Shown here: one piece after another, positions 12,001 through 33,978 of the stretch
Layout: each line of letters begins with the position of its first letter
Numbering within the stretch: position 1 is the stretch's first letter
NCBI GenBank assembly: GCA_032718475.1
Contig: JAUCBJ010002282.1
Location: 1-33,978, forward strand
DNA: 33,978 nucleotides
Direction: 5' to 3'
Source: Nemertoderma westbladi
Taxonomy: Eukaryota; Animalia; Xenacoelomorpha
The notes under the pieces: model-generated
What the model was told of the DNA's origin: nothing
Seen by the model: the letters and a program-made list of their open reading frames with translations, nothing else
The model's database searches: none
Program-made: the position numbers and the translations under genes

Positions 12001-15000
12001 CGGATCGCTAACTATAGCAGGTTGAATCGCGTCAGTAGGTACCATACACGGATCGGTAACTATAGCAGGTTGAATAGCGTCAGTGGGTACCATACACGGA
12101 TCGCTAACTATAGCAGGTTGAATCGCGTCAGAGGGTACCATACACGGATCGCTAACTATAGCAGGTTGAATAGCGTCTGTGGGTACCATACACGGATCGC
12201 TAACTATAGCAGGTTGAATCGCGTCAGTAGGTACCATACACGGATCGCTAACACCATAACAGGTTGAATCGCTTCAGTGGGTACCATACACGGATCGGTA
12301 ACTATAGCAGGTTGAATAGCGTCAGTAGGTACCATACACGGATCGCTAACTATAGCAGGTTGAATCGCGTCAGTAGGTACCATACACGGATCGGTAACTA
12401 TAGCAGGTTGAATAGCGTCAGGGGTTCCATACACGGATCGCTAACACTATAGCAGGTTGAATAGCGTCAGTGGGTACCATACACGGATCGGTAACACTAT
12501 AGCAGGTTGAATAGCGTCAGAGGGTACCATACACGGATCGGTAACTATAGCAGGTTGAATCGCGTCAGTGGGTACCATACACGGATCGCTAACTATAGCA
12601 GGTTGAATCGCGTCAGAGGGTACCATACACGGATCGCTAACTATAGCAGGTTGAATCGCGTCAGTGGGTACCATACACGGATCGCTAACTATAGCAGGTT
12701 GAATAGCGTCAGAGGGTACCATACACGGATCGCTAACTATAACAGGTTGAATCGCGTCAGTAGGTACCATACACGGATCGCTAACTATAGAAGGTTGAAT
12801 CGCGTCAGTGGGTACCATACACGGATCGCTAACTATAGCAGGTTGAATCGCGTCAGTAGGTACCATACACGGATCGCTAACTATAGCAGGTTGAATCGCG
12901 TCAGAGGGTACCATACACGGATCGCTAACTATAGCAGGTTGAATCGCGTCAGTGGGTACCATACACGGATCGCTAACTATAGCAGGTTGAATAGCGTCAG
13001 TGGGTACCATACACGGATCGCTAACTATAACAGGTTGAATCGCGTCAGAGGGTACCATACACGGATCGCTAACTATAACAGGTTGAATCGCGTCAGTGGG
13101 TACCATACACGGATCGCTAACTATAGCAGGTTGAATCGCGTCAGAGGGTACCATACACGGATCGCTAACTATAGCAGGTTGAATCGCGTCAGAGGGTACC
13201 ATACACGGATCGCTAACTATAGCAGGTTGAATCGCGTCAGTAGGTACCATACACGGATCGCTAACTATAGCAGGTTGAATCGCGTCAGTAGGTACCATAC
13301 ACGGATCGCTAACTATAGCAGGTTGAATCGCGTCAGTAGGTACCATACACGGATCGCTAACTATAGCAGGTTGAATAGCGTCAGAGGGTACCATACACGG
13401 ATCGCTAACTATAGAAGGTTGAATAGCGTCAGTGGGTACCATACACGGATCGCTAACTATAGCAGGTTGAATCGCGTCAGTAGGTACCATACACGGATCG
13501 CTAACTATAGAAGGTTGAATAGCGTCAGTGGGTACCATACACGGATCGCTAACTATAGCAGGTTGAATCGCGTCAGTAGGTACCATATACGGATCGCTAA
13601 CACTATAGCAGGTTGGATCGCGTCAGTGGGTACCATACACGGATCGCTAACTATAGAAGGTTGAATAGCGTCAGTGGGTACCATACACGGATCGCTAACT
13701 ATAGCAGGTTGAATCGCGTCAGTAGGTACCATACACGGATCGCTAACTATAGCAGGTTGAATCGCGTCAGTAGGTACCATATACGGATCGCTAACACTAT
13801 AGCAGGTTGGATCGCGTCAGTGGGTACCATACACGGATCGCTAACTATAGCAGGTTGAATCGCGTCAGTGGGTACCATACACGGATCGCTAACACTATAG
13901 CAGGTTGAATCGCTTCAGTGGGTACCATACACGGATCGCTAACTATAACAGGTTGAATCGTGTCAGTAGGTACCATACACGGATCGCTAACTATAGCAGG
14001 TTGTATCGCGTCAGTGGGTACCATACACGGATCGCTAACTATAGCAGGTTGAATCGCGTCAGAGGGTACCATACACGGATCGCTAACTATAGCAGGTTGG
14101 ATCGCGTCAGTAGGTACCATACATGGATCGCTAACTATAGCAGGTTGAATCGCGTCAGTGGGTACCATACACGGATCGCTAACTATAACAGGTTGAATAG
14201 CGTCAGTGGGTACCATACACGGATCGCTAACACTATAGCAGGTTGGATCGCGTCAGTGGGTACCATACACGGATCGCTAACACTATAGCAGGTTGAATCG
14301 CGTCAGTGGGTACCATACACGGATCGCTAACTATAGCAGGTTGAATAGCGTCAGAGGGTACCATACACGGATCGGTAAATATAGCAGGTTGAATAGCGTC
14401 AGGGGGTACCATACACGGATCGCTAACACTATAGCAGGTTGAATAGCGTCAGTGGGTACCATACACGGATCGGTAACACTATAGCAGGTTGAATAGCGTC
14501 AGAGGGTACCATACACGGATCGGTAACTATAGCAGGTTGAATCGCGTCAGTGGGTACCATACACGGATCGGTAACTATAGCAGGTTGAATCGCGTCAGAG
14601 GGTACCATACACGGATCGCTAACTATAGCAGGTTGAATAGCGTCAGTGGGTACCATACACGGATCGCTAACTATAGCAGGTTGAATCGCGTCAGTAGGTA
14701 CCATACACGGATCGCTAACTATAGCAGGTTGAATAGCGTCAGTGGGTACCATACACGGATCGCTAACTATAGCAGGTTGAATCGCGTCAGTAGGTACCAT
14801 ACACGGATCGCTAACTATAGCAGGTTGAATCGCGTCAGAGGGTACCATACACGGATCGCTAACTATAGCAGGTTGAATCGCGTCAGTGGGTACCATACAC
14901 GGATCGCTAACTATAGCAGGTTGAATAGCGTCAGTGGGTACCATACACGGATCGCTAACTATAACAGGTTGAATCGCGTCAGAGGGTACCATACACGGAT

Positions 15001-17388
15001 CGCTAACTATAACAGGTTGAATCGCGTCAGTGGGTACCATACACGGATCGCTAACTATAGCAGGTTGAATCGCGTCAGAGGGTACCATACACGGATCGCT
15101 AACTATAGCAGGTTGAATCGCGTCAGAGGGTACCATACACGGATCGCTAACTATAGCAGGTTGAATCGCGTCAGTAGGTACCATACACGGATCGCTAACT
15201 ATAGCAGGTTGAATCGCGTCAGAGGGTACCATACACGGATCGCTAACTATAACAGGTTGAATCGTGTCAGTGGGTACCATACACGGATCGCTAACTATAG
15301 CAGGTTGAATCGCGTCAGTAGGTACCATACACGGATCGCTAACTATAGCAGGTTGAATCGCGTCAGAGGGTACCATACACGGATCGCTAACTATAGCAGG
15401 TTGAATCGCGTCAGTAGGTACCATACACGGATCGCTAACTATAGCAGGTTGAATCGCGTCAGTAGGTACCATACACGGATCGCTAACTATAGCAGGTTGA
15501 ATCGCGTCAGTGGGTACCATACACGGATCGCTAACTATAGCAGGTTGAATCGCGTCAGTGGGTACCATACACGGATCGCTAACTATAGCAGGTTGAATCG
15601 CGTCAGTGGGTACCATACACGGATCGCTAACTATAGCAGGTTGAATCGCGTCAGTAGGTACCATACACGGATCGCTAACTATAGCAGGTTGAATCGCGTC
15701 AGTAGGTACCATACACGGATCGCTAACTATAGCAGGTTGAATCGCGTCAGAGGGTACCATACACGGATCGCTAACTAAAGCAGGTTGAATCGCGTCAGAG
15801 GGTACCATACACGGATCGCTAACTATAGCAGGTTGAATCGCGTCAGTGGGTACCATACACGGATCGCTAACTATAGCAGGTTGAATCGCGTCAGTAGGTA
15901 CCATACACGGATCGCTAACTATAGCAGGTTGAATCGCGTCAGTAGGTACCATACACGGATCGCTAACTATAGCAGGTTGAATCGCGTCAGAGGGTACCAT
16001 ACACGGATCGCTAACTATAGCAGGTTGAATCGCGTCAGTAGGTACCATACACGGATCGCTAACTATAGCAGGTTGAATCGCGTCAGTGGGTACCATACAC
16101 GGATCGCTAACTATAGCAGGTTGAATCGCGTCAGAGGGTACCATACACGGATCGCTAACTATAGCAGGTTGAATCGCGTCAGTGGGTACCATACACGGAT
16201 CGCTAACTATAGCAGGTTGAATCGCGTCAGTAGGTACCATACACGGATCGCTAACTATAGCAGGATGAATCGCGTCAGTAGGTACCATACACGGATCGCT
16301 AACTATAGCAGGTTGAATCGCGTCAGTGGGTACCATACACGGATCGCTAACTATAGCAGGTTGAATCGCGTCAGTGGGTACCATACACGGATCGCTAACT
16401 ATAGCAGGTTGAATCGCGTCAGTGGGTACCATACACGGATCGCTAACTATAGCAGGTTGAATCGCGTCAGTAGGTACCATACACGGATCGCTAACTATAG
16501 CAGGTTGAATCGCGTCAGTAGGTACCATACACGGATCGCTAACTATAGCAGGTTGAATCGCGTCAGAGGGTACCATACACGGATCGCTAACTATAGCAGG
16601 TTGAATCGCGTCAGAGGGTACCATACACGGATCGCTAACTATAGCAGGTTGAATCGCGTCAGTGGGTACCATACACGGATCGCTAACTATAGCAGGTTGA
16701 ATCGCGTCAGTAGGTACCATACACGGATCGCTAACTATAGCAGGTTGAATCGCGTCAGTAGGTACCATACACGGATCGCTAACTATAGCAGGTTGAATCG
16801 CGTCAGAGGGTACCATACACGGATCGCTAACTATAGCAGGTTGAATCGCGTCAGTAGGTACCATACACGGATCGCTAACTATAGCAGGTTGAATCGCGTC
16901 AGTGGGTACCATACACGGATCGCTAACTATAGCAGGTTGAATCGCGTCAGTAGGTACCATACACGGATCGCTAACTATAGCAGGTTGAATCGCGTCAGTG
17001 GGTACCATACACGGATCGCTAACTATAGCAGGTTGAATCGCGTCAGAGGGTACCATACACGGATCGCTAACTATAGCAGGTTGAATCGCGTCAGAGGGTA
17101 CCATACACGGATCGCTAACTATAGCAGGTTGAATCGCGTCAGTGGGTACCATACACGGATCGCTAACTATAACAGGTTGAATAGCGTCAGTGGGTACCAT
17201 ACACGGATCGCTAACACTATAGCAGGTTGGATCGCGTCAGTGGGTACCATACACGGATCGCTAACACTATAGCAGGTTGAATCGCGTCAGTGGGTACCAT
17301 ACACGGATCGGTAACTATAGCAGGTTGAATCGTGTCAGTGGGTACCATACACGGATCGCTAACTATAGCAGGTTGAATCGCGTCAGTA
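1..17388. repeat. Minisatellite array A, left arm (48-bp unit ACTATAGCAGGTTGAATCGCGTCAGTGGGTACCATACACGGATCGCTA, with 50-bp +AC variants), ~360 copies, running off the window start
   Basis: Directly visible head-to-tail repetition with a small set of recurrent variant sites (CAG-TG/TA/AG-GG, AATC/AATA, TAGC/TAAC/TAGA, CGCT/CGGT, +AC). Lies in the presumed PBRM1 intron that follows the BD6 exon. Confidence 0.99.
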
Positions 17389-17419
17389 CACTGAAAAAAT
17401 TGTTCGGCGGTTCTTTTTT

Positions 17420-17775
17420 TAACCTCTGGTATAAAATTTTCAACCGATGGTTGCTCTTTTAAAACCGCTGGTTACAAATTGGCATATGCTAAAACGGTGG
17501 TTTAAATTTTCCCAAAGTGCAGTGTTACATTGAAACGGTGGTTTAAATTTTCCCAAACTGCAGTGTTACATTGAAACGGTGGTTTTCCGGATTGTAATTG
17601 CTATCATAAAACAGAAACAGTGTTTGACTTAGGAATAAACGGCGGTTCATATTATTTGATACAAAGTAACCGGTGGTTTAAAACTTACATTAATCGATTG
17701 GTTGAAAAATACATATAACCGTTGATTTAAACAGTAAACGGTGGTTGAAAACTTAGAATAACCGGTGGTTTACAA
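17420..17775. repeat. Left subterminal repeats of the transposon: dispersed AA(C/A)C-NNN-GGTT motifs and a 41-bp tandem repeat (~17492-17585)
   Basis: aaccgatggtt, aaccgctggtt, aaccggtggtt and several aaacggtggtt. AAACGGTGGTTTAAATTTTCCCAAA(G/C)TGCAGTGTTACATTG occurs twice plus a partial third copy. Confidence 0.85.
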
Positions 17776-18637
17776 AAATTCAAATCACAGTTTGTTTACA
17801 ACACAGTAAACGGTAGTGATCAATAACATAATATCCAATCATGTAAACAATCTTAAGACGTTTGTTAAGTACGTTTTTATGGAACATGTTTTATCAGGTA
17901 AATATTTAACAATTGTTTAACATGATTTATATGTTTTACATTATTTATAACATAAATCAAGCATTCCCTTATATTTGTTGAATGCTACTACTATATCATG
18001 TTGAACAAAAATGTGTTATAAATTACAATGTATGTCTTAGGGATGTTTGAATAAACCGCCATAAGTTGACCACTAATTCTGCAATTTGTTCATACTGTCA
18101 TAGGCCTATCATAATTCAGTCATTGTGAAAGTGCCATTGCCATCCTGCGCTGTCCTGCAATCGCAGAATCGGTACCGGTACAATCCTGAAATTTGATTAC
18201 AGTGATGCAGTGTATCACTGCCACTGGTACAGTAGTGGTACCGGTTGCCGGTAGTACAGAACAGTAGTACAGTACTGCTGTACACTGTAGTAGGGCTGTG
18301 CTGTGTAGGGTAGTGTACTCTTTTTGTTTTGTAGTTGTACCGGTACTATTTCTGTATTTCTTGGATTGTAGCTATATTTGTGTGTATATTACTGTATTAT
18401 GAGTACGGTACCTGAGTACGGTATATTATATTTCTGTATTTGGTTTATTATTTTGGTTTGGTTAGGCCTATGCAGGAATGCAGCTATGCGGTTGGTTAGT
18501 TCTGTAGTTCAGTAGTTGGCCAGGCCTTAACCCTAATTAAAACTGTCACATAGGCTGATAGGCCAGTAGGCGTAACCGGGTGGTGAATTTTTAGGGGGGT
18601 CAGGGGTGGAAATTCTCTGCTACACCAGTACCTACCG

Positions 18638-19378
18638 GTGTACCTACCACTCTACCAGTATACCGAGACCCGACACAACTTTAGGAGTAGGAAGGCCAAT
18701 AAACGATTGTCCTCAACACCATCAACAGCTGCTAACGATAAAGCCGGTACTGAGGTACAGTTGCCTAGTAAGGTTTCAGACATTTCGCCATTGGATATAG
18801 CTAAAGTTAATCTCAAGGAGCCAGATGCAAAAGTGACCAAACGGAAAGTAATAAATCGTCCTCCTTTGCTCTGCTTATCGGATGATGATAATATAGCTGA
18901 GGGATTGGAGATAGTCCCACATCCACGAGGTGCAAAGAGGAAAGTAAGCATTTTTGATTCTTCTTCTGATGATGAATCCTCGGAATTATCTTATGGATCT
19001 AAATCGTCTAGTACCTGCAGTGGTCCATCTGATAGTCGAGATGAGGGTGACTATGTTGGTGAGTTGGTTTGGGCGCGGCAACGTATAACAAAACCATTCT
19101 GGCCTGCCCGAACTGAAAGAGCTCCAGAGGGTTCCGCAATGCCCAAGCCAAAGCATCCAGGGGACAACTTCAAGTGGATTTACTTCTTTGGTTCTAACAA
19201 TTTCTCATGGATTAAAGACACTGCGGAATACATTGTTCCATATTTTGAAAATCGCGAGCAGCATGGGAAAAGGAAGGCTTCGTCTACAGTCAAATTTCTA
19301 AAGGGACTTGATGACATTGATGAAGAATATACCGCAATGTCTGTTAGGAAAAATGATAGTCCATATCAGGAAGAGTGA
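18638..19378 (+). CDS. PWWP-domain ORF carried inside the transposon (domain ~19052-19330, preceded by a basic and Ser/Asp-rich disordered region)
   Basis: VGELVWAR...KPFWPAR...WIYFFGSNNFSWIK...IVPY...KFLKGLDDI follows the PWWP pattern (G.LVWAK, P[WF]WP, V.FFG, W, C-terminal helix). The frame is open from 18587. No ATG precedes the domain (the track start is GTG), so this is probably a spliced terminal exon or a captured fragment. Confidence 0.8.
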   Translation: MYLPLYQYTETRHNFRSRKANKRLSSTPSTAANDKAGTEVQLPSKVSDISPLDIAKVNLKEPDAKVTKRKVINRPPLLCLSDDDNIAEGLEIVPHPRGAKRKVSIFDSSSDDESSELSYGSKSSSTCSGPSDSRDEGDYVGELVWARQRITKPFWPARTERAPEGSAMPKPKHPGDNFKWIYFFGSNNFSWIKDTAEYIVPYFENREQHGKRKASSTVKFLKGLDDIDEEYTAMSVRKNDSPYQEE

Positions 19379-19499
19379 ATGGTTCAATACATTATCATTT
19401 AGGATTTAGGAAACTGTAAATTAATTTATTCAATAATTTGATTATCATTTATATTTGATAAACATATTTGATATTTGATATTATATTTGATATTCAACA

Positions 19500-19985
19500 A
19501 ACCATTTATTTGAAACCTGAAACACCGGTTGATCTTAAATTAACCACAGGTTAAACCATGTATTTGAAACCCGAAACACCGGTTGATCTTAAATTAACCA
19601 CAGGTTAAACCATATATTTGAAACCTGAAACAACGGTTGATCCACATTAAACGCAGGTTTAACCATTTATTTTGAAAAAAAACACCGGTTGATCTTAAAT
19701 TAACCACAGGTTAAACCATATATTTGAAACCCGAAACACCGGTTGATCTTAAATTAACCACAGGTTAAATCATTTATTTGAAACCTGAAACACCATTGAA
19801 CTTAAGCACAACCACTGGTTGTTATACGAAAAACAACCTGAGGTTTAATTTATAAAATTTAACCACAGGTTATCTTTGAATCGATAAACCTCTGGTTCCT
19901 CGAATTAACCGCAGGTCAAAAATTCACCAAATTAACCTGGGGTTATTTTCGAAAACCAGAGGTTTTTTAAAAAAGAACCACTGGT
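19500..19985. repeat. Right subterminal repeats of the transposon: ~5.5 x 54-bp tandem unit (~19500-19795) followed by further AACC-NNN-GGTT motifs
   Basis: TTTGAAACCYGAAACACCGGTTGATCTTAAATTAACCACAGGTTAAACCATNTA starts at about 19509, 19563, 19617, 19671, 19723 and 19777. Then aaccactggtt, aacctgaggtt, aacctctggtt, aacctggggtt and aaccagaggtt. Confidence 0.9.
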
Positions 19986-19999
19986 ACGATTTTTCAGTG

Positions 20000-21646
20000 T
20001 AGGTACCATACACGGATCGCTAACTATAACAGGTTGAATCGCGTCAGTGGGTACCATACACGGATCGCTAACACTATAGCAGGTTGGATCGCGTCAGTGG
20101 GTACCATACACGGATCGCTAACACTATAGCAGGTTGAATCGCGTCAGTGGGTACCATACACGGATCGGTAACTATAGCAGGTTGAATCGTGTCAGTGGGT
20201 ACCATACACGGATCGCTAACACTATAGCAGGTTGAATCGCGTCAGTGGGTACCATACACGGATCGGTAACTATAGCAGGTTGAATCGTGTCAGTGGGTAC
20301 CATACACGGATCGCTAACACTATAGCAGGTTGGATCGCGTCAGTGGGTACCATACACGGATCGCTAACACTATAGCAGGTTGAATCGCGTCAGTGGGTAC
20401 CATACACGGATCGCTAACTATAGCAGGTTGAATCGCGTCAGAGGGTACCATACACGGATCGCTAACTATAACAGGTTGAATCGTGTCAGTGGGTACCATA
20501 CACGGATCGCTAACTATAGCAGGTTGAATCGCGTCAGTAGGTACCATACACGGATCGCTAACTATAGCAGGTTGAATCGCGTCAGAGGGTACCATACACG
20601 GATCGCTAACTATAACAGGTTGAATCGTGTCAGTGGGTACCATACACGGATCGCTAACTATAGCAGGTTGAATCGCGTCAGAGGGTACCATACACGGATC
20701 GCTAACTATAGCAGGTTGAATCGCGTCAGTGGGTACCATACACGGATCGCTAACTATAGCAGGTTGAATCGCGTCAGTGGGTACCATACACGGATTGCTA
20801 ACACTATAGCAGGTTGAATAGCGTCAGTGGGTACCATACACGGATCGCTAACTATAGCAGGTTGAATCGCTTCAGTGGGTACCTAGAAGATGGTCTTGGT
20901 ATCAGGGAGCGATATACTCTACTTTTACAAGCGTTTGTTGATAGCTTAATACGCGGCGGCATACACGGATCGCTAACTATAGCAGGTTGAATCGCGTCAG
21001 AGGGTACCATACACGGATCGCTAACTATAGCAGGTTGAATCGCGTCAGTAGGTACCATACACGGATCGCTAACTATAGCAGGTTGAATCGCGTCAGTAGG
21101 TACCATACACGGATCGCTAACTATAGCAGGTTGAATAGCGTCAGTAGGTACCATACACGGATCGCTAACTATAACAGGTTGAATCGCGTCAGAGGGTACC
21201 ATACACGGATCGCTAACTATAGCAGGTTGAATCGCGTCAGTGGGTACCATACACGGATCGCTAACTATAGCAGGTTGAATAGCGTCAGTGGGTACCATAC
21301 ACGGATCGCTAACTATAACAGGTTGAATCGCGTCAGTAGGTACCATACACGGATCGCTAACTATAGCAGGTTGAATAGCGTCAGTGGGTACCATACACGG
21401 ATCGCTAACTATAACAGGTTGAATCGCGTCAGAGGGTACCATACACGGATCGCTAACTATAGCAGGTTGAATCGCGTCAGTGGGTACCATACACGGATCG
21501 CTAACTATAACAGGTTGTATCGCGTCAGAGGGTACCATACACGGATCGCTAACACACTAGCAGGTTGAATCGCGTCAGAAGGTACCATACACGGATCGCT
21601 AACTATAGCAGGTTGAATCGCGTCAGGGGTTCCATCACACACGGAT
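20000..21646. repeat. Minisatellite array A, right arm (~32 copies), ending ~8 nt from the exon boundary at 21655
   Basis: Same 48-bp unit resumes exactly in register after the transposon. It ends in a degenerate unit (CAGGGGTTCCATCACACACGGATG) next to aacttac, the reverse complement of the donor. Confidence 0.98.
20884..20960. other. 77-bp unique insertion within one array-A unit
   Basis: The unit is split as GGGTACC|insert|ATACACGG with no loss of repeat bases and only a 1-bp (C) junction ambiguity. No TIR, poly-A tail or TSD. Confidence 0.9.
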
Positions 21647-21654
21647 GAACTTAC

Positions 21655-21846
21655 CCACACAGATCATCCCTTTTCGAGATGTACAACATCTGTAGATCCA
21701 CGGAATCCTCGTAGATCTCGGAATCCAGTTTACTTATCCTCCGCGCGCGATCTAACACTGCGAATATGTCGGTCTGCAGTCGGTCCAACCGTCGGTACCG
21801 GCCCTTCTCCAGGTTGTGTCGGATTATATCGAACGACATCGGACGT
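21655..21846 (-). CDS. PBRM1: Polybromo-1 coding exon, C-terminal part of bromodomain 6
   Basis: Acceptor tttatttag|A and donor TGTGG|gtaagt. 192 nt, phase 2 to phase 2. Encodes RPMSFDIIRHNLEKGRYRRLD...DSEIYEDSVDLQ...RDDLC, matching the recalled BD6 pattern FDII..N....RYRRLD...SEIYEDAVELQ...RDELC. Confidence 0.95.
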
Positions 21847-22393: not shown

Positions 22394-22785
22394 CTTTTAG
22401 CGTTAACGTCCTCGTCGTTGCTGGCCTCCTCGCTGGGTAAATCCATCAAGGAGTCGCTATAGCAACGCCCACCGTCGTCCTCCCTGGAGAGGACGGTGAG
22501 GAAGAGCTGAGTGAGGAGGTCGCGGACACACTGCTGTACGTTTACGGAGTCCTGTCCAACCGAACCCTGGATGCTGGACTTCTTCTCGAGAAGAACCCGC
22601 TGGAGAGTGAGCGCGTCCTTGTAGATGAGCGACTCCGGGTCGTTGTATTTACATCCGTTGTCCAGCATCAGTATAAAATCGGACACCATGTCGTCCAACA
22701 TCTCGTACGTGTGCGACTCCATCCGCTGGTAGATCCGCTGCATATCCATTGGTTTACGAATGACGTCATAATATTCCGGTAACTC
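22394..22785 (-). CDS. PBRM1: Polybromo-1 coding exon, rest of bromodomain 5 and start of bromodomain 6
   Basis: Acceptor tttgttgccag|GAG and donor AAAAG|gttaat. 392 nt, phase 0 to phase 2. Encodes ELPEYYDVIRKPMDM...YNDPESLIYKDAL...DDGGRCYSDSL. The PESLIYKDAL and GRCYSDSL motifs are characteristic of polybromo. Confidence 0.95.
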
Positions 22786-22918: not shown

Positions 22919-22945
22919 CCCCCCCCCCCCCCCCCCCCCCCCCCC
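22919..22945 (+). repeat. C27 homopolymer
   Basis: Directly visible. Confidence 0.9.
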
Positions 22946-23197
22946 TTCTTACTGCTAGCTGAACAACCTCCGTCGGCTTTGTTTTCTTCTATTTGGAATT
23001 TAATTTTCATTAGGAATACATTTTGGGTGGACTATATTGATTTCGGTGGACTAAGTTGTCAACTGTTTTTTTGGAATGAGCATGGTCGATTACGTGACAA
23101 AATTCGAGCAGAATTTTTGTTTCGTACTTTTCAAGGAAAAAATACCGCCAATTTTGAAATTAAATTGTCTGATTCCATTTCTGAGGGCAATTTTCAT

Positions 23198-23216
23198 GGG
23201 GGGGGGGGGGGGGGGG
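23198..23216 (+). repeat. G19 homopolymer
   Basis: Directly visible. Confidence 0.9.
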
Positions 23217-24203
23217 TTACCCCCTCCTCGGGTATAATTTCCACCTCTTTGGTAATTTTTCACCTGATGCAGAATTTAATGGGGATTTCAAATCTTAAAA
23301 CGGCTTGGAGAGATCTTTTTTAGTTCTCAAGTTATCGCTGTCTTCCCGTCTACCATAATGCACGTCAAATTCAGAAGACAGACATATTAGACCAAACATT
23401 AAAGATGACGCCGGAAATGAAATCACAGGCCACGAAAACCACCATACTGAAAATTTTAGTGAGTTGGTATGAAGCCATAGTGTCAAACATTACTGACCGA
23501 TTAATAGACTACAGACAGTCAGGTTTGAGTGGGAAGGTTCAAACTTTAAAGCAAATTATCTCGGAATTATATTTTTCGATTTTAAAATTTTTCAAAATAC
23601 TACTCAACCACCATTTTTCACATAAATTCGATAGTTTATGGCTTGTTTGAAGGTTTTCTTCTAGATCTTCAAAAACTCTAGCACGTTTTTGAAAAAAATG
23701 AAAAAAATCAAATATTATTGCGTATTTTATAATTAATGTAATTAATTAAAATTGATTAATTTAATTAAAAATTGATAATTTAAAAAATCGACCGGAGAGC
23801 TTTTGTCCAAAAAGTCCAAAAAGGTTGGTTTCAAAACATTTAGACAAATATTGAGGGACTAGTAGTAAAAATTAGTAGTTAAAAAAATAGTAGTAAAAAT
23901 TCAATCTAAATTTTTGTTGCTGTTTGGCCTCCCCACGTTGGCTTACCCGAGAATATGTAAAAAAAGGCATGTTCTTAGATAAAATTGTCATTACGGGGGG
24001 GGGTTTTCGGGGTCTGTTTTGTTGTTTGTCGGAAAGACAAAATAATGTAAATTTTATAGGCCTATTTATGGAAACATGCCACACAGTCAAATCCAAATCG
24101 TCATATCTGCAAAACTAAACATGTAGGGAAATCATAACTTTAATAGGATTCGCATCGAAACAGGTGCCTGACTTAAAGTTTAGTTTCAGTTTAACAGACT
24201 CAC

Positions 24204-24385
24204 CGGCCGACTGGGTAGTTTAAAGAAAGCCTGATAAAGTTGTCTCCCTTTACTATCTGTATAATCACGTATGGTTTCGTACAACATCTTTAGATGGGTC
24301 TGCAATTCCGTTTTAGGGACGAAGAATTTCGTTGTCGCTTTTTGTTTTCCTGGAGTTCGAATCTTCGGTATAAGAAGTGGAGCAT
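24204..24385 (-). CDS. PBRM1: Polybromo-1 coding exon, BD4-BD5 linker and start of bromodomain 5 (APLLIPKIRTPGKQK...LKMLYETIRDYTDSKGRQLYQAFFKLPSRP)
   Basis: Not in the ORF track; translated by hand. Acceptor cgtttag|AT and donor CCG|gtgagt. 182 nt, phase 1 to phase 0. YETIRDYTDSKGRQL...F.KLPSR resembles recalled PBRM1 BD5 (YEAVKNYTDKRGRRL...FLRLPSR). Confidence 0.92.
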
Positions 24386-24465
24386 CTAAACGATTAAATT
24401 AGATTGAATGATAAAGGAAACTTAATAGAACCTAGTATAACATTATTACCAAACGGTGGAACCTA

Positions 24466-27400
24466 TACTTACCAACTGGAGGTGGACCCAACTCAGCTCT
24501 CGCCCTACTCACCAACTGGAGGTGGACCTAACTCCGCTCTCGCCTCTCGCCCTACTCACCAACTGGAGGTGGACCTAACTCCGCTCTCGCCTCTCGCCCT
24601 ACTCACCAACTGGAGGTGGACCTAACTCCGCTCTCGCCTCTCGCCCTACTCACCAACTGGAGGTGGACCTAACTCCGCTCTCGCCCTACTCACCAACTGG
24701 AGGTGGACCTAACTCCGCTCTCGCCTCTCGCACTACTTACCAACTGGAGGTGGACCTAACTCCGCTCTCAACTCTCGCACTACTCACCAACTGGAGGTGG
24801 ACCTAACTCCGCTCTCGCCTCTCGCCCTACTCACCAACTGGAGGTGGACCTAACTCCGCTCTCGCCTCTCGCCCTACTCACCAACTGGAGGTGGACCTAA
24901 CTCCGCTCTCGCCTCTCGCCCTACTCACCAACTGGAGGTGGACCTAACTCAGCTCTCGCCTCTCGCACTACTTACCAACTGGAGGTGGACCTAACTCCGC
25001 TCTCAACTCTCGCACTACTCACCAACTGGAGGTGGACCTAACTCCGCTCTCGCCTCTCGCCCTACTCACCAACTGGAGGTGGATCTAACTCCGCTCTCGC
25101 CCTACTCACCAACTGGAGGTGGACCTAACTCCGCTCTCGCCTCTCGCCCTACTCACCAACTGGAGGTGGACCTAACTCCGCTCTCGCCTCTCGCCCTACT
25201 CACCAACTGGAGGTGGACCTAACTCCGCTCTCGCCTCTCGCACTACTTACCAACTGGAGGTGGACCTAACTCCGCTCTCGCCTCTCGCACTACTTACCAA
25301 CTGGAGGTGGACCCAACTCCGCTCTCGCCTCTCGCCCTACTCACCAACTGGAGGTGGACCTAACTCCGCTCTCGCCTCTCGCCCTACTCACCAACTGGAG
25401 GTGGACCTAACTCCGCTCTCGCCTCTCGCACTACTCACCAACTGGGGGTGGACCTAACTCCGCTCTCGCCTCTCGCACTACTCACCAACTGGAGGTGGAC
25501 CTAACTCCGCTCTCGCCTCTCGCCCTACTCACCAACTGGAGGTGGACCTAACTCCGCTCTCGCCTCTCGCACTACTCACCAACTGGGGGTGGACCTAACT
25601 CCGCTCTCGCCTCTCGCACTACTCACCAACTGGAGGTGGACCTAACTCCGCTCTCGCCTCTCGCACTACTCACCAACTGGAGGTGGACCTAACTCCGCTC
25701 TCGCCTCTCGCCCTACTCACCAACTGGAGGTGGACCTAACTCCGCTCTCGCCTCTCGCACTACTCACCAACTGGGGGTGGACCTAACTCCGCTCTCGCCT
25801 CTCGCACTACTCACCAACTGGAGGTGGACCTAACTCCGCTCTCGCCTCTCGCCCTACTCACCAACTGGAGGTGGACCTAACTCCGCTCTCGCCTCTCGCA
25901 CTACTCACCAACTGGGGGTGGACCTAACTCCGCTCTCGCCTCTCGCACTACTCACCAACTGGGGGTGGACCTAACTCCGCTCTCGCCTCTCGCACTACTC
26001 ACCAACTGGAGGTGGACCTAACTCCGCTCTCGCCTCTCGCCCTACTCACCAACTGGAGGTGGACCTAACTCCGCTCTCGCCTCTCGCCCTACTCACCAAC
26101 TGGAGGTGGACCTAACTCCGCTCTCGCCTCTCGCCCTACTCACCAACTGGAGGTGGACCTAACTCCGCTCTCGCCTCTCGCCCTACTCACCAACTGGAGG
26201 TGGACCTAACTCCGCTCTCGCCTCTCGCCCTACTCACCAACTGGGGGTGGACCTAACTCCGCTCTCGCCTCTCGCCCTACTCACCAACTGGGGGTGGACC
26301 TAACTCCGCTCTCGCCTCTCGCACTACTCACCAACTGGAGGTGGACCTAACTCCGCTCTCGCCTCTCGCCCTACTCACCAACTGGAGGTGGACCTAACTC
26401 CGCTCTCGCCTCTCGCCCTACTCACCAACTGGAGGTGGACCTAACTCCGCTCTCGCCTCTCGCCCTACTCACCAACTGGAGGTGGACCTAACTCCGCTCT
26501 CGCCTCTCGCCCTACTCACCAACTGGAGGTGGACCTAACTCCGCTCTCGCCTCTCGCCCTACTCACCAACTGGAGGTGGACCTAACTCCGCTCTCGCCTC
26601 TCGCACTACTCACCAACTGGAGGTGGACCTAACTCCGCTCTCGCCTCTCGCCCTACTCACCAACTGGAGGTGGACCTAACTCCGCTCTCGCCTCTCGCAC
26701 TACTCACCAACTGGAGGTGGACCTAACTCCGCTCTCGCCTCTCGCACTACTCACCAACTGGAGGTGGACCTAACTCCGCTCTCGCCTCTCGCCCTACTCA
26801 CCAACTGGAGGTGGACCTAACTCCGCTCTCGCCTCTCGCCCTACTCACCAACTGGAGGTGGACCTAACTCCGCTCTCGCCTCTCGCCCTACTCACCAACT
26901 GGAGGTGGACCTAACTCCGCTCTCGCCTCTCGCACTACTCACCAACTGGGGGTGGACCTAACTCCGCTCTCGCCTCTCGCACTACTCACCAACTGGGGGT
27001 GGACCTAACTCCGCTCTCGCCTCTCGCACTACTCACCAACTGGAGGTGGACCTAACTCCGCTCTCGCCTCTCGCCCTACTCACCAACTGGAGGTGGACCT
27101 AACTCCGCTCTCGCCTCTCGCCCTACTCACCAACTGGGGGTGGACCTAACTCCGCTCTCGCCTCTCGCCCTACTCACCAACTGGGGGTGGACCTAACTCC
27201 GCTCTCGCCTCTCGCACTACTCACCAACTGGAGGTGGACCTAACTCCGCTCTCGCCTCTCGCCCTACTCACCAACTGGAGGTGGACCTAACTCCGCTCTC
27301 GCCTCTCGCCCTACTCACCAACTGGAGGTGGACCTAACTCCGCTCTCGCCTCTCGCACTACTCACCAACTGGAGGTGGACCTAACTCCGCTCTCGCCTCT

Positions 27401-30400
27401 CGCCCTACTCACCAACTGGAGGTGGACCTAACTCCGCTCTCGCCTCTCGCACTACTCACCAACTGGAGGTGGACCTAACTCCGCTCTCGCCTCTCGCACT
27501 ACTCACCAACTGGAGGTGGACCTAACTCCGCTCTCGCCTCTCGCCCTACTCACCAACTGGAGGTGGACCTAACTCCGCTCTCGCCTCTCGCCCTACTCAC
27601 CAACTGGAGGTGGACCTAACTCCGCTCTCGCCTCTCGCCCTACTCACCAACTGGAGGTGGACCTAACTCCGCTCTCGCCTCTCGCACTACTCACCAACTG
27701 GGGGTGGACCTAACTCCGCTCTCGCCTCTCGCACTACTCACCAACTGGGGGTGGACCTAACTCCGCTCTCGCCTCTCGCACTACTCACCAACTGGAGGTG
27801 GACCTAACTCCGCTCTCGCCTCTCGCCCTACTCACCAACTGGAGGTGGACCTAACTCCGCTCTCGCCTCTCGCCCTACTCACCAACTGGGGGTGGACCTA
27901 ACTCCGCTCTCGCCTCTCGCCCTACTCACCAACTGGGGGTGGACCTAACTCCGCTCTCGCCTCTCGCACTACTCACCAACTGGAGGTGGACCTAACTCCG
28001 CTCTCGCCTCTCGCCCTACTCACCAACTGGAGGTGGACCTAACTCCGCTCTCGCCTCTCGCCCTACTCACCAACTGGAGGTGGACCTAACTCCGCTCTCG
28101 CCTCTCGCCCTACTCACCAACTGGAGGTGGACCTAACTCCGCTCTCGCCTCTCGCCCTACTCACCAACTGGAGGTGGACCTAACTCCGCTCTCGCCTCTC
28201 GCCCTACTCACCAACTGGAGGTGGACCTAACTCCGCTCTCGCCTCTCGCCCTACTCACCAACTGGGGGTGGACCTAACTCCGCTCTCGCCTCTCGCACTA
28301 CTCACCAACTGGAGGTGGACCTAACTCCGCTCTCGCCTCTCGCCCTACTCACCAACTGGAGGTGGACCTAACTCCGCTCTCGCCTCTCGCCCTACTCACC
28401 AACTGGAGGTGGACCTAACTCCGCTCTCGCCTCTCGCCCTACTCACCAACTGGAGGTGGACCTAACTCCGCTCTCGCCTCTCGCACTACTCACCAACTGG
28501 AGGTGGACCTAACTCCGCTCTCGCCTCTCGCCCTACTCACCAACTGGAGGTGGACCTAACTCCGCTCTCGCCTCTCGCCCTACTCACCAACTGGAGGTGG
28601 ACCTAACTCCGCTCTCGCCTCTCGCACTACTCACCAACTGGAGGTGGACCTAACTCCGCTCTCGCCTCTCGCCCTACTCACCAACTGGAGGTGGACCTAA
28701 CTCCGCTCTCGCCTCTCGCCCTACTCACCAACTTGAGGTGGACCTAACTCCGCTCTCGCCTCTCGCACTACTCACCAACTGGGGGTGGACCTAACTCCGC
28801 TCTCGCCTCTCGCACTACTCACCAACTGGGGGTGGACCTAACTCCGCTCTCGCCTCTCGCACTACTCACCAACTGGAGGTGGACCTAACTCCGCTCTCGC
28901 TTCTCGCCCTACTCACCAACTGGAGGTGGACCTAACTCCGCTCTCGCCTCTCGCACTACTCACCAACTGGGGGTGGACCTAACTCCGCTCTCGCCTCTCG
29001 CACTACTCACCAACTGGGGGTGGACCTAACTCCGCTCTCGCCTCTCGCACTACTCACCAACTGGAGGTGGACCTAACTCCGCTCTCGCCTCTCGCCCTAC
29101 TCACCAACTGGAGGTGGACCTAACTCCGCTCTCGCCTCTCGCACTACTCACCAACTGGAGGTGGACCTAACTCCGCTCTCGCCTCTCGCACTACTCACCA
29201 ACTGGGGGTGGACCTAACTCAGCTCTCGCCTCTCGCACTACTCACCAACTGGGGGTGGACCTAACTCCGCTCTCGCCTCTCGCACTACTCACCAACTGGA
29301 GGTGGACCTAACTCCGCTCTCGCCTCTCGCACTACTCACCAACTGGGGGTGGACCTAACTCCGCTCTCGCCTCTCGCACTACTCACCAACTGGGGGTGGA
29401 CCGCTCTCACCTCTCGCACTACTCACCAACTGGAGGTGGACCTAACTCCGCTCTCGCCTCTCGCCCTACTCACCAACTGGAGGTGGACCTAACTCAGCTC
29501 TCAACTCTCGCACTACTCACCAACTGGAGGTGGACCTAACTCCGCTCTCGCCTCTCGCACTACTTACCAACTGGGGGTGGACCTAACTCCGCTCTCGCCT
29601 CTCGCACTACTCACCAACTGGAGGTGGACCCAACTCCGCTCTAGCCTCTCGCACTACTCACCAACTGGAAGTGGACCTAACTCCGCTCTCGCCTCTCGCA
29701 CTACTCACCAACTGGAGGTGGACCTAACTCCGCTCTCGCCTCTCGCACTACTCACCAACTGGGGGTGAACCTAACTCCGCTCTCGCCTCTCACCCTACTT
29801 ACCAACTGGAGGTGGACCTAACTCCGCTCTCGCCCTACTCACCAACTGGGGGTGGACCTAACTCAGCTCTCAACTCTCGCACTACTCACCAACTGGGGGT
29901 GGACCTAACTCTGCTCTCAACTCTCGCACTACTCACCAACTGGAGGTGGACCTAACTCCGCTCTCGCCTCTCGCACTACTTACCAACTGGGGGTGGACCT
30001 AACTCCGCTCTCGCCTCTCGCACTACTCACCAACTGGAGGTGGACCTAACTCCGCTCTCGCCTCTCGCACTACTCACCAACTGGAGGTGGACCCAACTCC
30101 GCTCTCGCCTCTCGCACTACTCACCAACTGGAAGTGGACCTAACTCCGCTCTCGCCTCTCGTCCTACTCACCAACTGGAAGTGGACCTAACTCCGCTCTC
30201 GCCTCTCGCACTACTCACCAACTGGGGGTGGACCTAACTCAGCTCTCAACTCTCGCACTACTCACCAACTGGGGGTGGACCTAACTCAGCTCTCAACTCT
30301 CGCACTACTCACCAACTGGAGGTGGACCTAACTCCGCTCTCGCCTCTCGCACTACTTACCAACTGGGGGTGGACCTAACTCCGCTCTCGCCTCTCGCACT

Positions 30401-31756
30401 ACTCACCAACTGGGGGTGGACCTAACTCCGCTCTCGCCTCTCGCACTACTCACCAACTGGAGGTGGACCCAACTCCGCTCTCGCCTCTCGCACTACTTAC
30501 CAACTGGAAGTGGACCTAACTCCGCTCTCGCCTCTCGCACTACTCACCAACTGGATGTGGACCTAACTCAGCTCTCGCCTCTCGCACTACTCACCAACTG
30601 GGGGTGGACCTAACTCAGCTCTCAACTCTCGCACTACTCACCAACTGGAGGTGGACCTAACTCCGCTCTCGCCCCTCGCACTACTCACCAACTGGAGGTG
30701 GAACCAACTCCGCTCTCGCCTCTCGCACTACTCACCAACTGGAAGTGGACCTAACTCCGCTCTCGCCTCTCGCACTACTCACCAACTGGAGGTGGACCTA
30801 ACTCCGCTCTCAACTCTCGCACTACTCACCAACTGGAGGTGGACCTAACTCCGCTCTCGCCTCTCGCACTACTCACCAACTGGGGGTGGACCTAACTCAG
30901 CTCTCAACTCTCGCACTATACTCACCAACTGGAGGTGGACCTAACTCCGCTCTCGCCTCTCGCACTACTCACCAACTGGGGGTGGACCTAACTCAGCTCT
31001 CGCCTCTCGCACTACTTACCAACTGGAGGTGGACCTAACTCCGCTCTCAACTCTCGCACTACTCACCAACTGGAGGTGGACCTAACTCCGCTCTCGCCTC
31101 TCGCCCTACTTACCAACTGGAGGTGGACCTAACTCCGCTCTCGCCTCTCGCACTACTCACCAACTGGAGGTGGACCTAACTCAGCTCTCGCCTCTCGTCC
31201 TACTCACCAACTGGAGGTGGACCTAACTCCGCTCTCGCCTCTCGCACTACTCACCAACAGGAAGTGGACCTAACTCCGCTCTCGCCTCTCGCACTACTCA
31301 CCAACTGGGGGTGAACCTAACTCCGCTCTCGCCTCTCGCCCTACTTACCAACTGGAGGTGGACCTAACTCCGCTCTCGCCCTACTCACCAACTGGGGGTG
31401 GACCTAACTCCGCTCTCGCCTCTCGCACTACTTACCAACTGGAGGTGGACATAACTCCGTTCTCGCCTCTCGCACTACTTACCAACTGGAGGTGGACCTA
31501 ACTCCGCTCTCGCCTCTCGCCCTACTTACCAGCTGGGGGTGGACCCAACTCAGCTCTCGCCTCTCGCACTACTCACCAACTGGGGGTGGACCTAACTCCG
31601 CTCTCGCCTCTCGCCGTACTCACCAACTGGAGGTGGACCTAACTCCGCTCTCGCCTCTCGCCCTACTCACCAACTGGAGGTGGACCTAACTCCGCTCTCG
31701 CCTCTCGCCCTACTCACCAACTGGAGGTGGACCCAACTCCGCTCTCGCCTCTCGCA
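24466..31756 (-). repeat. Minisatellite array B: 47-bp unit made of the PBRM1 exon 3' end plus 5' splice site, ~155 copies
   Basis: Minus-strand unit is CGAGAGGCGAGAGCGGAGTTAGGTCCACCTCCAGTTG|GTGAGTAG(G/T)G. The first unit overlaps coding sequence REARAELGPPPV. Occasional 40-bp units lack one 7-bp CTCTCGC sub-repeat. Confidence 0.98.
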
Positions 31757-31879
31757 GTTGTTTCTCCAACGTTGTCGCCGCTTTATAGACGTGCGATTCG
31801 TCTTCATTATAATGTTTCGCGTTGCTAAACAGCAACTCGAAATTCGACAATAACAAATCTTCGTTGGGATAATTATCGC
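31718..31879 (-). CDS. PBRM1: Polybromo-1 coding exon, C-terminal half of bromodomain 4 (DNYPNEDLLLSNFELLFSNAKHYNEDESHVYKAATTLEKQLREARAELGPPPV)
   Basis: Not in the ORF track; translated by hand. Acceptor cccctccccag|GC and donor GTTG|gtgagt. 162 nt, phase 1 to phase 1. Contains the F.NA..YN bromodomain motif. LEKQLREARAELGP resembles the recalled vertebrate BD4 end LEKLLKEKRKELGP. The last 37 nt are the first unit of array B. Confidence 0.92.
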
Positions 31880-32556
31880 CTGGGGAGGGGAAAATTGAGT
31901 AAAAATAAGTTCAGTTATTGTAATAATATATTTATTATATATCTATCTATAACCGACATACTGCATTGCAGCTGCATTAGGAATGCCGCTGTATTATATA
32001 TGCGTCTACCAAACCCCAACCATTGTTACCAGTAACATAAGTCGTCCACATGCTCAAGCATCCTTTGTTTGAGGTTATCCTCGTACGATCAGACATTTTC
32101 TGAGGACTGTCTAAGTTAAATGTCAAAATGTTGGTCTTCTTCGAGATAATAAAATGAAATGACCAACAACAGAAGCAGCCTGCTCCAATGAGCTGAGGAG
32201 CCTTTGGACTCCCTCTAGTAATTCAGAGATAATAAGAAAGAGAAACTTGAAGAAGTCAACAAACACAACAGCCAGCAGCCATATACACAGCTGCCTTAGC
32301 CACATCATCCTTGGCAGCCTTAGTGTTTTTGAGCCGGGACTCATTTTGTGCTTAGTGAGGACCTCTCGGCACTACCGAATCTTTTTTCCCATATAATACA
32401 TAACCTTAAATTGATACGGTACTTTTGTTGCTCAATTCTTATAAAAGATAAGCGATATGGAGATACAAAATAAATTGAACTGTAGTATTTTACTATATTG
32501 ATTCCAAAGTTACTGCGATTCTAATTATTGTACTCTTCAACTCCTGATGCTGCCTA

Positions 32557-32776
32557 AAGGCCATGATACACCACAGGAGCGGTGAGCGGCAGCGGCGGGC
32601 GGCCGCGGCGAGCGGCCGATGTGAGCGCCGACTTTTAGTATGATACACTATAGGAGCGGCGAGCGGCAGCAGCCATTTGTGGTGTATCATCACCCATAGA
32701 AAATAATGTGTTTCTATTTTTTAAAAGTGGCCGCTCGTCGCTGCCGTTCGCCGCTCCTGTGGTGTATCATGGCCTT
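32557..32776. mobile_element. 220-bp MITE with ~50-bp terminal inverted repeats
   Basis: AAGGCCATGATACACCACAGGAGCGG is a perfect 26-bp inverted repeat at both ends, extending to ~50 bp with 5 mismatches. Flanked by TA at 32555-32556 and 32777-32778. GC-rich within an AT-rich intron. Confidence 0.9.
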
Positions 32777-33243
32777 TACTCAATGTTAAATAATTTAGTG
32801 TTTCTCGAATATTTGTTACGTAACTAGAGAACCGCTAACACCATAAACCAATATTGGATATTGTGTTCCGTTTTGGAGTTCGCCTTGCTGACACTCAAGT
32901 TGGAATAACATTTGAATATGTGAACGGATTTTGCTCAAATTACGTGGCAAACCTTTTCTATTTCCTTGCTCTTTCAACAAATTTAACACAAATTCAATAA
33001 AATTCCACCAAAAATATTTTATTTCACTTTATTCGCCGGGAAAAAAGTAAATTCAATGTTTGTTTGTTTGAATGTTGTAAATTGAATGCAATCAATTACA
33101 CTAGTACTATAATAATTAATTAGCAGATGGATAACCTTTGCATTTAATTGACAAATTCAAAACAATCTCCAAAAAAAATAATTGTCAAAGTGGCTTTGGA
33201 GTACGAATTGCACATAAATTATATTCTAGAACTGTATACTAAC

Positions 33244-33367
33244 TTTTTATTTTAGTTTCTATAGACCGCAAGTCTATAGGCTCCCGTATAGTCTGGAAGT
33301 AATCTGGGTAGAGTTTAAAGGAAGGCAGGTCGTAAAATATTTCGGATAAACGTTCACCGCTTTTATC
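33244..33367 (-). CDS. PBRM1: Polybromo-1 coding exon, N-terminal part of bromodomain 4 (DKSGERLSEIFYDLPSFKLYPDYFQTIREPIDLRSIETKIK)
   Basis: Acceptor ttttttttcag|GAT and donor AAAA|gttagt. 124 nt, phase 0 to phase 1. Contains the bromodomain ZA-loop motif LP...YPDY...I..P.DL. Joins in frame with the exon starting at 31879 (A+GC=Ser). Confidence 0.9.
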
Positions 33368-33673
33368 CTGAAAAAAAAAACAAATTAACCTACAGATAAA
33401 GGTGGGAATGTAATTCAAATAAAATAACATTTTCAAATATTCAACATAATACAATTTAATAGAAAATCGCATAATAGAGTCAAAATATAATGTCATAATT
33501 TAGTAGGTTTTAAAGTTAAAATATAAATTAAGTTTACTTATTGTGTAATATGGACCCGAAATGGGGCGTCCAGTTTCAGACAACCCTCTGAACAGAGAAA
33601 CCAAAATATTTTTCCAAAGTACCAACATTACACCTATCTGGCCCGGGCTATTTTTACTGCGGAGATGGACCGC

Positions 33674-33702
33674 GGGGGGGGGGGGGGGGGGGGGGGGGGG
33701 GG
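33674..33702 (+). repeat. G29 homopolymer
   Basis: Directly visible. Confidence 0.9.
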
Positions 33703-33978
33703 TGGGGCATTTTAGAACTTTTTTATCTTGGTTGAAAGATACAATTTTTTAGATATACTGTACAGGTGTTCGTTAAGTTATTATACAGTACTTACCATGC
33801 CCCACAATCTAGCGTAGTAATTTAGTGACAATTTAAATTAAGTCCCCTTTAAAAGTTTATACATTTTTACACCCAAGGTTTATCAAACTCCTTGACCGAA
33901 ACTACGCCATGCCACTGCTCAATTACAATTTTTGAAATTTTTTGAATGAAATGGTTGCCGTGCGCTTATGTTTAATAA

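What the first reader, a model, noticed from the sequence alone, without database searches (positions are those of the whole stretch)
24386..31879. A 7.3-kb intron built from ~155 tandem copies of its own exon end and 5' splice site
Seen: on the sense (minus) strand the BD4 exon ends CGA GAG GCG AGA GCG GAG TTG GGT CCA CCT CCA GTT G|gtgagtaggg. These 37 exonic and 10 intronic nt are the 47-bp satellite unit, so every copy carries a consensus donor (TTG|GTGAGT or TTG|GTAAGT) in near-native exon context. Reading past the first donor gives GGT GAG TAG, so choosing any later donor directly includes an in-frame stop. Only 87 nt (24386-24472) separate the last full donor from the next acceptor. Established: U1 recognises GT(A/G)AGT, and premature stops trigger nonsense-mediated decay. 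Inference: a short intron was expanded ~80-fold by amplifying its splice junction. The cell must either pick the first of ~155 equivalent donors or use the array as a U1 sink or NMD-coupled dosage control on a conserved chromatin remodeller.
Basis: partly seen in the sequence, partly recalled or inferred. Interest (0 to 1): 0.88.

Follow-up and report, generated by a model that had tools for sequence, protein, structure and literature searches.

The report
Splice-donor minisatellite in a PBRM1 intron
A 47-base piece holding the end of an exon and its splice signal is repeated 156 times in an intron of an animal's polybromo-1 (PBRM1) gene; the one spliced RNA found uses the first signal, as in known human and lancelet genes with this kind of repeat, so it is likely a large but tolerated repeat rather than a control switch.

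Summary
The structure is real. A 47-bp array (24473-31756, minus strand) starts in the PBRM1 bromodomain-4 exon and carries 156 intact donors. It fills 99% of a 7,332-nt intron that ends in an 87-nt unique tail. Any later donor brings in an immediate in-frame stop.

A spliced contig from run X4 joins 31718 directly to 24385 with no mismatch, so the first donor is used. DNA runs from two studies hold the repeat at high depth, though none spans it.

The arrangement is known: human F7 IVS7, 6-16, CBS, LMNB2 and PDGF (PMC1557585), ABCA7 (PMC5954066) and amphioxus 'mirages' (PMC3087553). F7 minigenes showed that the most upstream donor wins whatever the copy number. This scan found the same kind on other DNA (20 notes, at least 13 genomes).

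It differs only in size and in being an unplaced, probably invertebrate, case. One loose end: the six-base donor core never varies among the copies (p about 0.02, one test). No evidence of a regulatory role; minor use of later donors could not be tested. New member of a known kind.

The parts
33244..33367 (-). PBRM1 exon, first half of bromodomain 4 (124 nt)
   Evidence: Spliced contig X4 positions 28-154; Pfam PF00439 E 8.6e-6; open frame
31718..31879 (-). PBRM1 exon, end of bromodomain 4 (162 nt); its last 39 nt are the first repeat unit
   Evidence: Spliced contig X4 positions 155-315, 0 mismatches; PF00439 E 1.6e-5; 4th of 6 domains in three homologues
31710..31720 (-). First donor TTG|GTGAGTAG, the one used; TAG at 31712-31710 is an in-frame stop if read through
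   Evidence: Contig joins 31718 to 24385; translation
24473..31756 (-). 47-bp minisatellite, 156 donors (148 spacings of 47, 6 of 40, 1 of 49 nt)
   Evidence: high repeat depth in DNA runs X1-X3
31522..31532 (-). Donor 5, CTG|GTAAGTAG: the nearest copy with a better match to U1 than donor 1; candidate for minor use
   Evidence: Sequence; 9 matches to the recalled consensus against 7 plus 2 wobbles; use not seen
24386..24472 (-). Last donor GTAAGTAT plus unique 87-nt AT-rich tail with branch-like CTAAT (-17) and acceptor; likely the ancestral short intron
   Evidence: covered without mismatch by DNA contigs of X1 and X3; ancestry is inferred
24204..24385 (-). Next PBRM1 exon (182 nt), BD4-BD5 linker and start of bromodomain 5
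   Evidence: Spliced contig X4 positions 316-498; alignment to human PBRM1
22394..22785 (-). PBRM1 exon (392 nt), bromodomain 5 into 6
   Evidence: Contig X4 positions 499-889; best hits are polybromo-1; PF00439 E 1.4e-14
21655..21846 (-). PBRM1 exon (192 nt), bromodomain 6
   Evidence: Contig X4 positions 890-1082

Best explanation
This is an exon-intron boundary minisatellite: 156 head-to-tail copies of the exon's last 39 bases plus its splice donor fill the intron, the spliced RNA found uses the first donor, and the array is likely a tolerated by-product of repeat expansion rather than a regulator. Likely history (inferred): one 47-49-nt tandem duplication across the junction of an 87-nt intron, then growth by unequal exchange and block duplication, with the edge copies lagging. 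Likely working (from the F7 experiments, assumed to hold in this animal): the spliceosome commits to the most upstream donor, so the later ones stay mostly silent. The few transcripts that use a later donor would carry a stop two codons past the exon and would be removed by NMD, which makes the expansion cheap.
For: Shown: a 3,096-nt contig in run X4 covers five exons at contiguous positions 28-154, 155-315, 316-498, 499-889 and 890-1082 with 0 mismatches and 0 gaps, joining 31718 to 24385. X4 has no contig on 31660-31717 (bin depth 4.59 = 71.1 x 4/62). The joined frame is open for 350 aa and 47% identical to human PBRM1. The array shows ordinary minisatellite turnover: 18 unit types among the first 20 copies against 4-5 per 20 in copies 61-140; an exact 18-unit block repeated at lag 16 (longest in 200 shuffles: 9); exon-type bases kept in both edge copies; one variant unit in X2 (31707, depth 78) absent from the window's copies. 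A second, donor-free 48-bp array of more than 390 copies lies in another intron of the same gene, and tandem arrays make up 77% of the window, so large intronic minisatellites are ordinary here. Published: F7 IVS7 uses only the upstream donor, unchanged with 1-12 units (PMC1557585); amphioxus mirages do not disturb splicing and show the same edge exclusion (PMC3087553).
Against: The RNA evidence is one contig from one run, labelled DNA? by the tool and judged RNA from its exon-only cover. Contigs drop rare forms and NMD would deplete later-donor products, so this shows the stable product, not the primary choice. Whether the X4 individual carries the same array is unknown. The six donor-core columns (-1, +1, +2, +4, +5, +6) are invariant while 21 of 47 columns vary: 1 of 47 rotations of that pattern is variant-free, p about 0.02 (2 of 48 in the donor-free control array). 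Pure neutrality does not predict this, though singletons alone (p 0.13) and shared variants alone (p 0.22) are unremarkable. In 6-16 and CBS nearby pseudo-donors are used (PMC1557585, introduction), and ABCA7 VNTR length raises skipping of the next exon 3.2-fold, so effects on splicing are possible.
Confidence: 0.8

Rival explanations
1. Unproductive-splicing dial: a regulated or length-dependent share of transcripts uses later donors (or skips the 182-nt next exon, a frameshift), meets a premature stop and is degraded, tuning PBRM1 dose.
For: Every later donor brings in the stop. 16 of 156 donors read GTAAGT, and donors 5 and 156 match U1 better than donor 1. The donor core is invariant. ABCA7 shows a length-dependent splicing effect.
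Against: The only spliced product seen uses donor 1 and keeps the next exon. In ABCA7, single-unit retention is about 2% and independent of length. In F7, unit number had no effect. A stop at +6 to +8 of a GTRAGTAG donor needs no selection to explain.
Confidence: 0.08
2. U1 loading platform: the copies bind U1 without being spliced, protecting the long nascent transcript or helping define the exon, and selection keeps the donor motif in the array.
For: 0 of 24 substitution alleles damage the donor core, and the only changes near it (+3 G/A, -3 T/C) are compatible with the consensus.
Against: One test at p about 0.02. Loss of one donor among 156 could hardly be selected. Exchange with the functional first donor is enough to filter shared variants (inference). 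The array has no AATAAA or ATTAAA on the sense strand for U1 to mask.
Confidence: 0.06
3. Stepwise (recursive) splicing or 3-nt microexons: the spliceosome removes the long intron in pieces using AG and GT sites inside the array.
For: Each unit has CAG three bases before the donor, and most internal copies have TTAG|GT at -17.
Against: No run of five pyrimidines before CAG and no YTRAY branch motif in the 7,245-nt array (0 and 0). The contig has no extra bases at the junction (315 to 316).
Confidence: 0.02
4. Assembly inflation: a real but much shorter array was over-expanded in the assembly.
For: No contig spans the array. The middle is very uniform and holds an exact 18-unit duplication. Depth ratios differ widely between runs, even X2 and X3 of one sample.
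Against: Repeat depth is far above the flanks in two studies: at 31707, 1,700 against about 7 (X1), 1,624 against about 20 (X2), 90 against 3-13 (X3) (the tool warns this is no copy number). A head-to-tail junction stands in X2. 40 distinct unit types are arranged in a graded pattern.
Confidence: 0.04

Closest known systems
Human F7 intron 7 37-bp VNTR, with 6-16 intron 2, CBS intron 13, LMNB2 and PDGF intron 4 (PMC1557585; parts 1, 3 and 4 of 6 read)
   Same: The first unit spans the exon-intron boundary, so the donor is repeated down the intron; the most upstream donor is used, even when later ones match U1 better.
   Different: 5-25 copies there, 156 here. F7 carries 4 exonic bases per unit, this one 38-39. 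Here the array is 99% of the intron, and the host is not a mammal. Minor use of donors 2-3, reported for 6-16 and CBS, is untested here.
Human CBS 31-bp VNTR c.1444_1467+7(16_21) (passages of PMC2630376; introduction of PMC1557585)
   Same: Unit mostly exonic (24 exon + 7 intron bases by its name), the closest match in make-up; copies differ by single-base changes.
   Different: 16-21 copies; two pseudo-donors are reported as used; length polymorphism is established there and not here.
Amphioxus 'mirages' in Adh3 and globins BflGb6/BflGb9 (PMC3087553, section 16 read; the original Adh3 paper not read)
   Same: Invertebrate minisatellites that duplicate an exon-intron boundary, leave normal splicing intact, evolve in concert and spare the edge copies.
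   Different: 3-6 units of 150-160 bp in BflGb6, and there it is the acceptor side. This array is far longer and keeps the donor in every copy.
Human ABCA7 intron 18 25-bp VNTR (PMC5954066; passages and section 21 read)
   Same: Very long donor-bearing array (up to about 427 units, 10.7 kb); use of the second donor gives a PTC and NMD.
   Different: Its unit starts at the GT and carries no exon end. Length-dependent skipping of the next exon is shown there; nothing like it is shown here.

Membership tests
Exon-intron boundary minisatellite (F7-type pseudo-donor array, amphioxus 'mirage') | Head-to-tail array of a minisatellite-sized unit | tested here: met
   47-bp unit, 155.2 copies, 95% matches
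Exon-intron boundary minisatellite (F7-type pseudo-donor array, amphioxus 'mirage') | First unit spans a real, used exon-intron boundary | tested here: met
   Array starts at 31756 inside the exon; spliced contig ends the exon at 31718
Exon-intron boundary minisatellite (F7-type pseudo-donor array, amphioxus 'mirage') | Donor sequence repeated through the intron | tested here: met
   156 of 156 copies keep GT[AG]AGT
Exon-intron boundary minisatellite (F7-type pseudo-donor array, amphioxus 'mirage') | Main mRNA uses the most upstream donor | tested here: met
   One contig of one run (X4): 31718 joined to 24385, 0 mismatches
Exon-intron boundary minisatellite (F7-type pseudo-donor array, amphioxus 'mirage') | Concerted turnover inside the array with edge copies spared | tested here: met
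   Diversity gradient, exon-type base in first and last copy, 18-unit block duplication
Exon-intron boundary minisatellite (F7-type pseudo-donor array, amphioxus 'mirage') | Copy number varies between alleles (VNTR) | tested here: inconclusive
   Depth ratios differ between runs but also within one sample; one unit variant in X2 is absent from the window; no spanning reads
Regulated unproductive splicing (AS-NMD) | Alternative choice brings in a premature stop upstream of later junctions | tested here: met
   Predicted from sequence: stop at codon 98 of the 350-aa stretch
Regulated unproductive splicing (AS-NMD) | The alternative form is made at an appreciable, regulated level | tested here: inconclusive
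   No such contig in X4, but contigs drop rare forms; no raw reads were offered
Regulated unproductive splicing (AS-NMD) | The regulated element is conserved in related species | not testable with these tools
   No close relative or genome held: best protein hit 54%, no genome, no metagenome loci
Recursive splicing | Internal acceptor (branch point, pyrimidine tract, AG) directly followed by a donor | tested here: not met
   0 YTRAY and 0 five-pyrimidine CAG in the array; CAG lies 3 nt before the GT
Intron gain by tandem duplication of exon sequence | Both splice sites of the intron come from the duplicated unit | tested here: not met
   The acceptor and branch-like site lie in the unique 87-nt tail, outside the repeat

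The most novel reading that the evidence does not exclude
The array is kept as a battery of working U1 sites. Selection preserves the donor core in all 156 copies, and array length sets how much PBRM1 pre-mRNA is diverted to later donors or exon skipping and then to NMD: a heritable, length-tunable dosage control on a PBAF subunit.
Probability: 0.08. Interest if true: 0.65.

Novelty: new member of a known kind. Interest (0 to 1): 0.24.

Why it matters
As a class it is known, and its rule (the first donor wins) has been tested in human minigenes. This case adds scale: 156 donors with nearly full exon context, against 5-25 in the exon-spanning cases read here. It is also a natural contest in which a weaker first donor 7.3 kb from the acceptor gives the stable mRNA, although a better-matching donor sits only 87 nt from that acceptor. 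With NMD blocked, this locus could show whether first-donor choice or decay of wrong products explains that result outside mammals. If array length tuned PBRM1 dose it would matter more, but nothing here shows that.

Tried and rejected
No whole genome is held, so I could not scan for other donor-spanning arrays or for the unit elsewhere in this genome. Within the window, no 9-mer of the unit occurs outside the array.

The run search listed no holder on record as RNA; X4 proved to hold spliced sequence only when laid.

No orthologous intron was found: the unit pattern had 0 matches in metagenome contigs; the exon peptide had 598 pattern hits, none confirmed; protein searches gave nothing closer than 54%. 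The organism stays unplaced, and the ancestral intron is inferred from the window alone.

Depth was rejected as a copy count (X2 and X3, one sample, disagree several-fold). Recursive splicing and microexon use were rejected on sequence. A fold of 1, 3 and 6 units gave no telling structure and had no shuffle control; it is not used.

Paper searches. None listed this locus; none of the 10 listed PBRM1 papers (of 142) held the word minisatellite. One search found nothing, so recalled reports of further human donor-bearing VNTRs are not cited. PMC10078293 (passages) did not bear on donor-spanning units. No supplements were opened. Look-ups of earlier notes for this genome and for look-alike stretches were empty.
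Full report
Observation. Tandem Repeats Finder reports a 47-bp array at 24497-31756 (155.2 copies, 95% matches, score 12941). On the minus strand it holds 156 sites [TC]TG|GT[AG]AGT, from 31717 to 24472: 140 GTGAGT and 16 GTAAGT. The 155 spacings are 47 nt (148), 40 nt (6) or 49 nt (1), so every copy keeps its donor. After the last donor come 87 unique, AT-rich bases with a branch-like CTAAT at -17 and the acceptor. The intron is 7,332 nt, 99% of it array.

The gene. Five exons (33367-33244, 31879-31718, 24385-24204, 22785-22394, 21846-21655) have AG and GT ends and join into an open 350-aa frame, 47% identical to human PBRM1 residues 506-848 of P0042. The top hits of the 392-nt exon are named polybromo-1; the best is 54% identical (sea urchin), with molluscs at 50-54% and vertebrates at 46-49%. 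So the animal has no close relative in that search and I leave it unplaced. The exon before the array ends the fourth of six bromodomains in three homologues. Reading past donor 1 gives Gly-Glu-stop; donors 2, 3, 4 and 156 were translated and all stop at codon 98.

Which donor is used. The run search listed six runs, none on record as RNA; four were laid. Run X4 covers the exons at depth 71 and not the unique intron sequence, and holds one 3,096-nt contig. Its pieces are 33243-33369 at positions 28-154 and 31718-31878 at 155-315, then 24203-24385 at 316-498, 22394-22784 at 499-889 and 21654-21846 at 890-1082, with no mismatch or gap. Records are numbered per call; I take them as one contig from equal run, length and depth. 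The 87-nt skip reported is this same contig fitting 32 bases of the last copy; one search resolves it to donor 1. No X4 contig lies on 31660-31717. Limits: one run, contigs only, rare forms dropped, NMD would hide later-donor products, and the array of that individual is unknown.

Is the array real? DNA runs from two studies show the repeat far above the flanks (at 31707: X1 1,700 against about 7; X2 1,624 against about 20; X3 90 against 3-13). The tool warns that such depth is no copy number, and X2 and X3 of one sample disagree. An X3 contig matches 23995-24526 exactly across the last donor, and X2 shows a head-to-tail junction. X1 may be the source of the assembly. Nothing spans the array, so a multi-copy array is supported and the length of 7.3 kb is not independently confirmed. 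X2 holds a unit variant (31707, depth 78) absent from the window's copies, a hint that the array differs between individuals.

How it grew (inferred). First and last copies keep the exon-type base at -17, which only 8 of 156 copies have. Diversity falls from 18 types in the first 20 copies to 4-5 per 20 in copies 61-140. An exact block of 18 units recurs at lag 16, against a longest block of 9 in 200 shuffles. The one 49-nt unit carries the longer intron start seen at the last donor. This fits one duplication across the junction of a short intron, then unequal exchange. The same gene has a second, donor-free 48-bp array of more than 390 copies in a later intron, and arrays fill 77% of the window.

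Against plain neutrality. 21 of 47 columns vary (24 alleles), but none of the six donor-core columns. The hypergeometric p is 0.021; 1 of 47 rotations of the pattern is variant-free, and it is the donor; in the control array 2 of 48 rotations are. Split by class the signal is weak (singletons p 0.13, shared variants p 0.22). It is one test and may be chance, or may reflect exchange with the functional first donor. I leave it open. Donors 5 and 156 match a recalled U1-complementary consensus better than donor 1 (9 matches against 7 plus 2 wobbles), yet donor 1 gives the mRNA seen. The array has no usable acceptor or branch motif and no AATAAA or ATTAAA.

What is known. PMC1557585 (parts 1, 3 and 4 of 6) describes the human F7 IVS7 37-bp VNTR, whose first unit spans the boundary. 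It lists 6-16 (25 pseudo-sites), CBS (15-20 repeats), LMNB2 and PDGF. It shows with 50 constructs that the most upstream donor is chosen with 1 to 12 units and against stronger later sites, unless these match U1 perfectly. The CBS repeat is named c.1444_1467+7(16_21) (PMC2630376, passages). The ABCA7 25-bp VNTR starts at the donor GT and reaches about 427 units; single-unit retention is about 2% and length-independent, while skipping of the next exon rises 3.2-fold (PMC5954066, passages and section 21). Amphioxus 'mirages' are the invertebrate version, with normal splicing, concerted evolution and spared edges (PMC3087553, passages and section 16). The scan's own notes list 20 findings with these words in at least 13 genomes (8 shown, unchecked, seen after my reading was set).

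Verdict. It is a new and unusually large member of a known kind. First-donor use is shown for one RNA contig; the neutral history is inferred; a regulatory role is unsupported but not excluded. Interest 0.24.

Noticed in passing
window 1-17387, 20002-20883, 20960-21640: A 48-bp minisatellite (359 + 18 + 14 copies, running off the window) fills the PBRM1 intron that starts at 21654, so that intron exceeds 21.6 kb. Its degenerate first unit aligns to intron bases +3 to +45, just past the donor, and it holds no GGT[AG]AG donor motif: a second array seeded next to a donor.
   Followed up: partly
window 17387-20001: A 2.6-kb insertion splits the 48-bp array. Its ends are inverted repeats (36 nt, 75%, starting TACACTGAAAAA), probably CACTG termini with a TA duplication: likely a non-autonomous DNA transposon. 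Family not determined.
   Followed up: partly
window 18587-19378 (+): A 263-codon stop-to-stop frame inside that insertion carries a full PWWP domain (PF00855, E 1.5e-9): possibly a captured host gene piece or part of the element, antisense to PBRM1.
   Followed up: partly
window 20884-20959: A 76-nt non-repeat stretch interrupts the 48-bp array.
   Followed up: no
window 33243 and 22393 (minus strand): Two used donors of this gene are weak, GTTAGT and GTTAAT, so the array's donors are among the stronger ones in this stretch.
   Followed up: no
window 32032-33085 and 23008-23880: Parts of two short PBRM1 introns are high-copy dispersed repeats (summed contig depth up to about 2e5 and 1e4 in DNA runs).
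   Followed up: no
window 22919-22945, 33674-33707, 23197-23217: Long C or G homopolymer runs in the introns; short-read contigs break at some of them.
   Followed up: no
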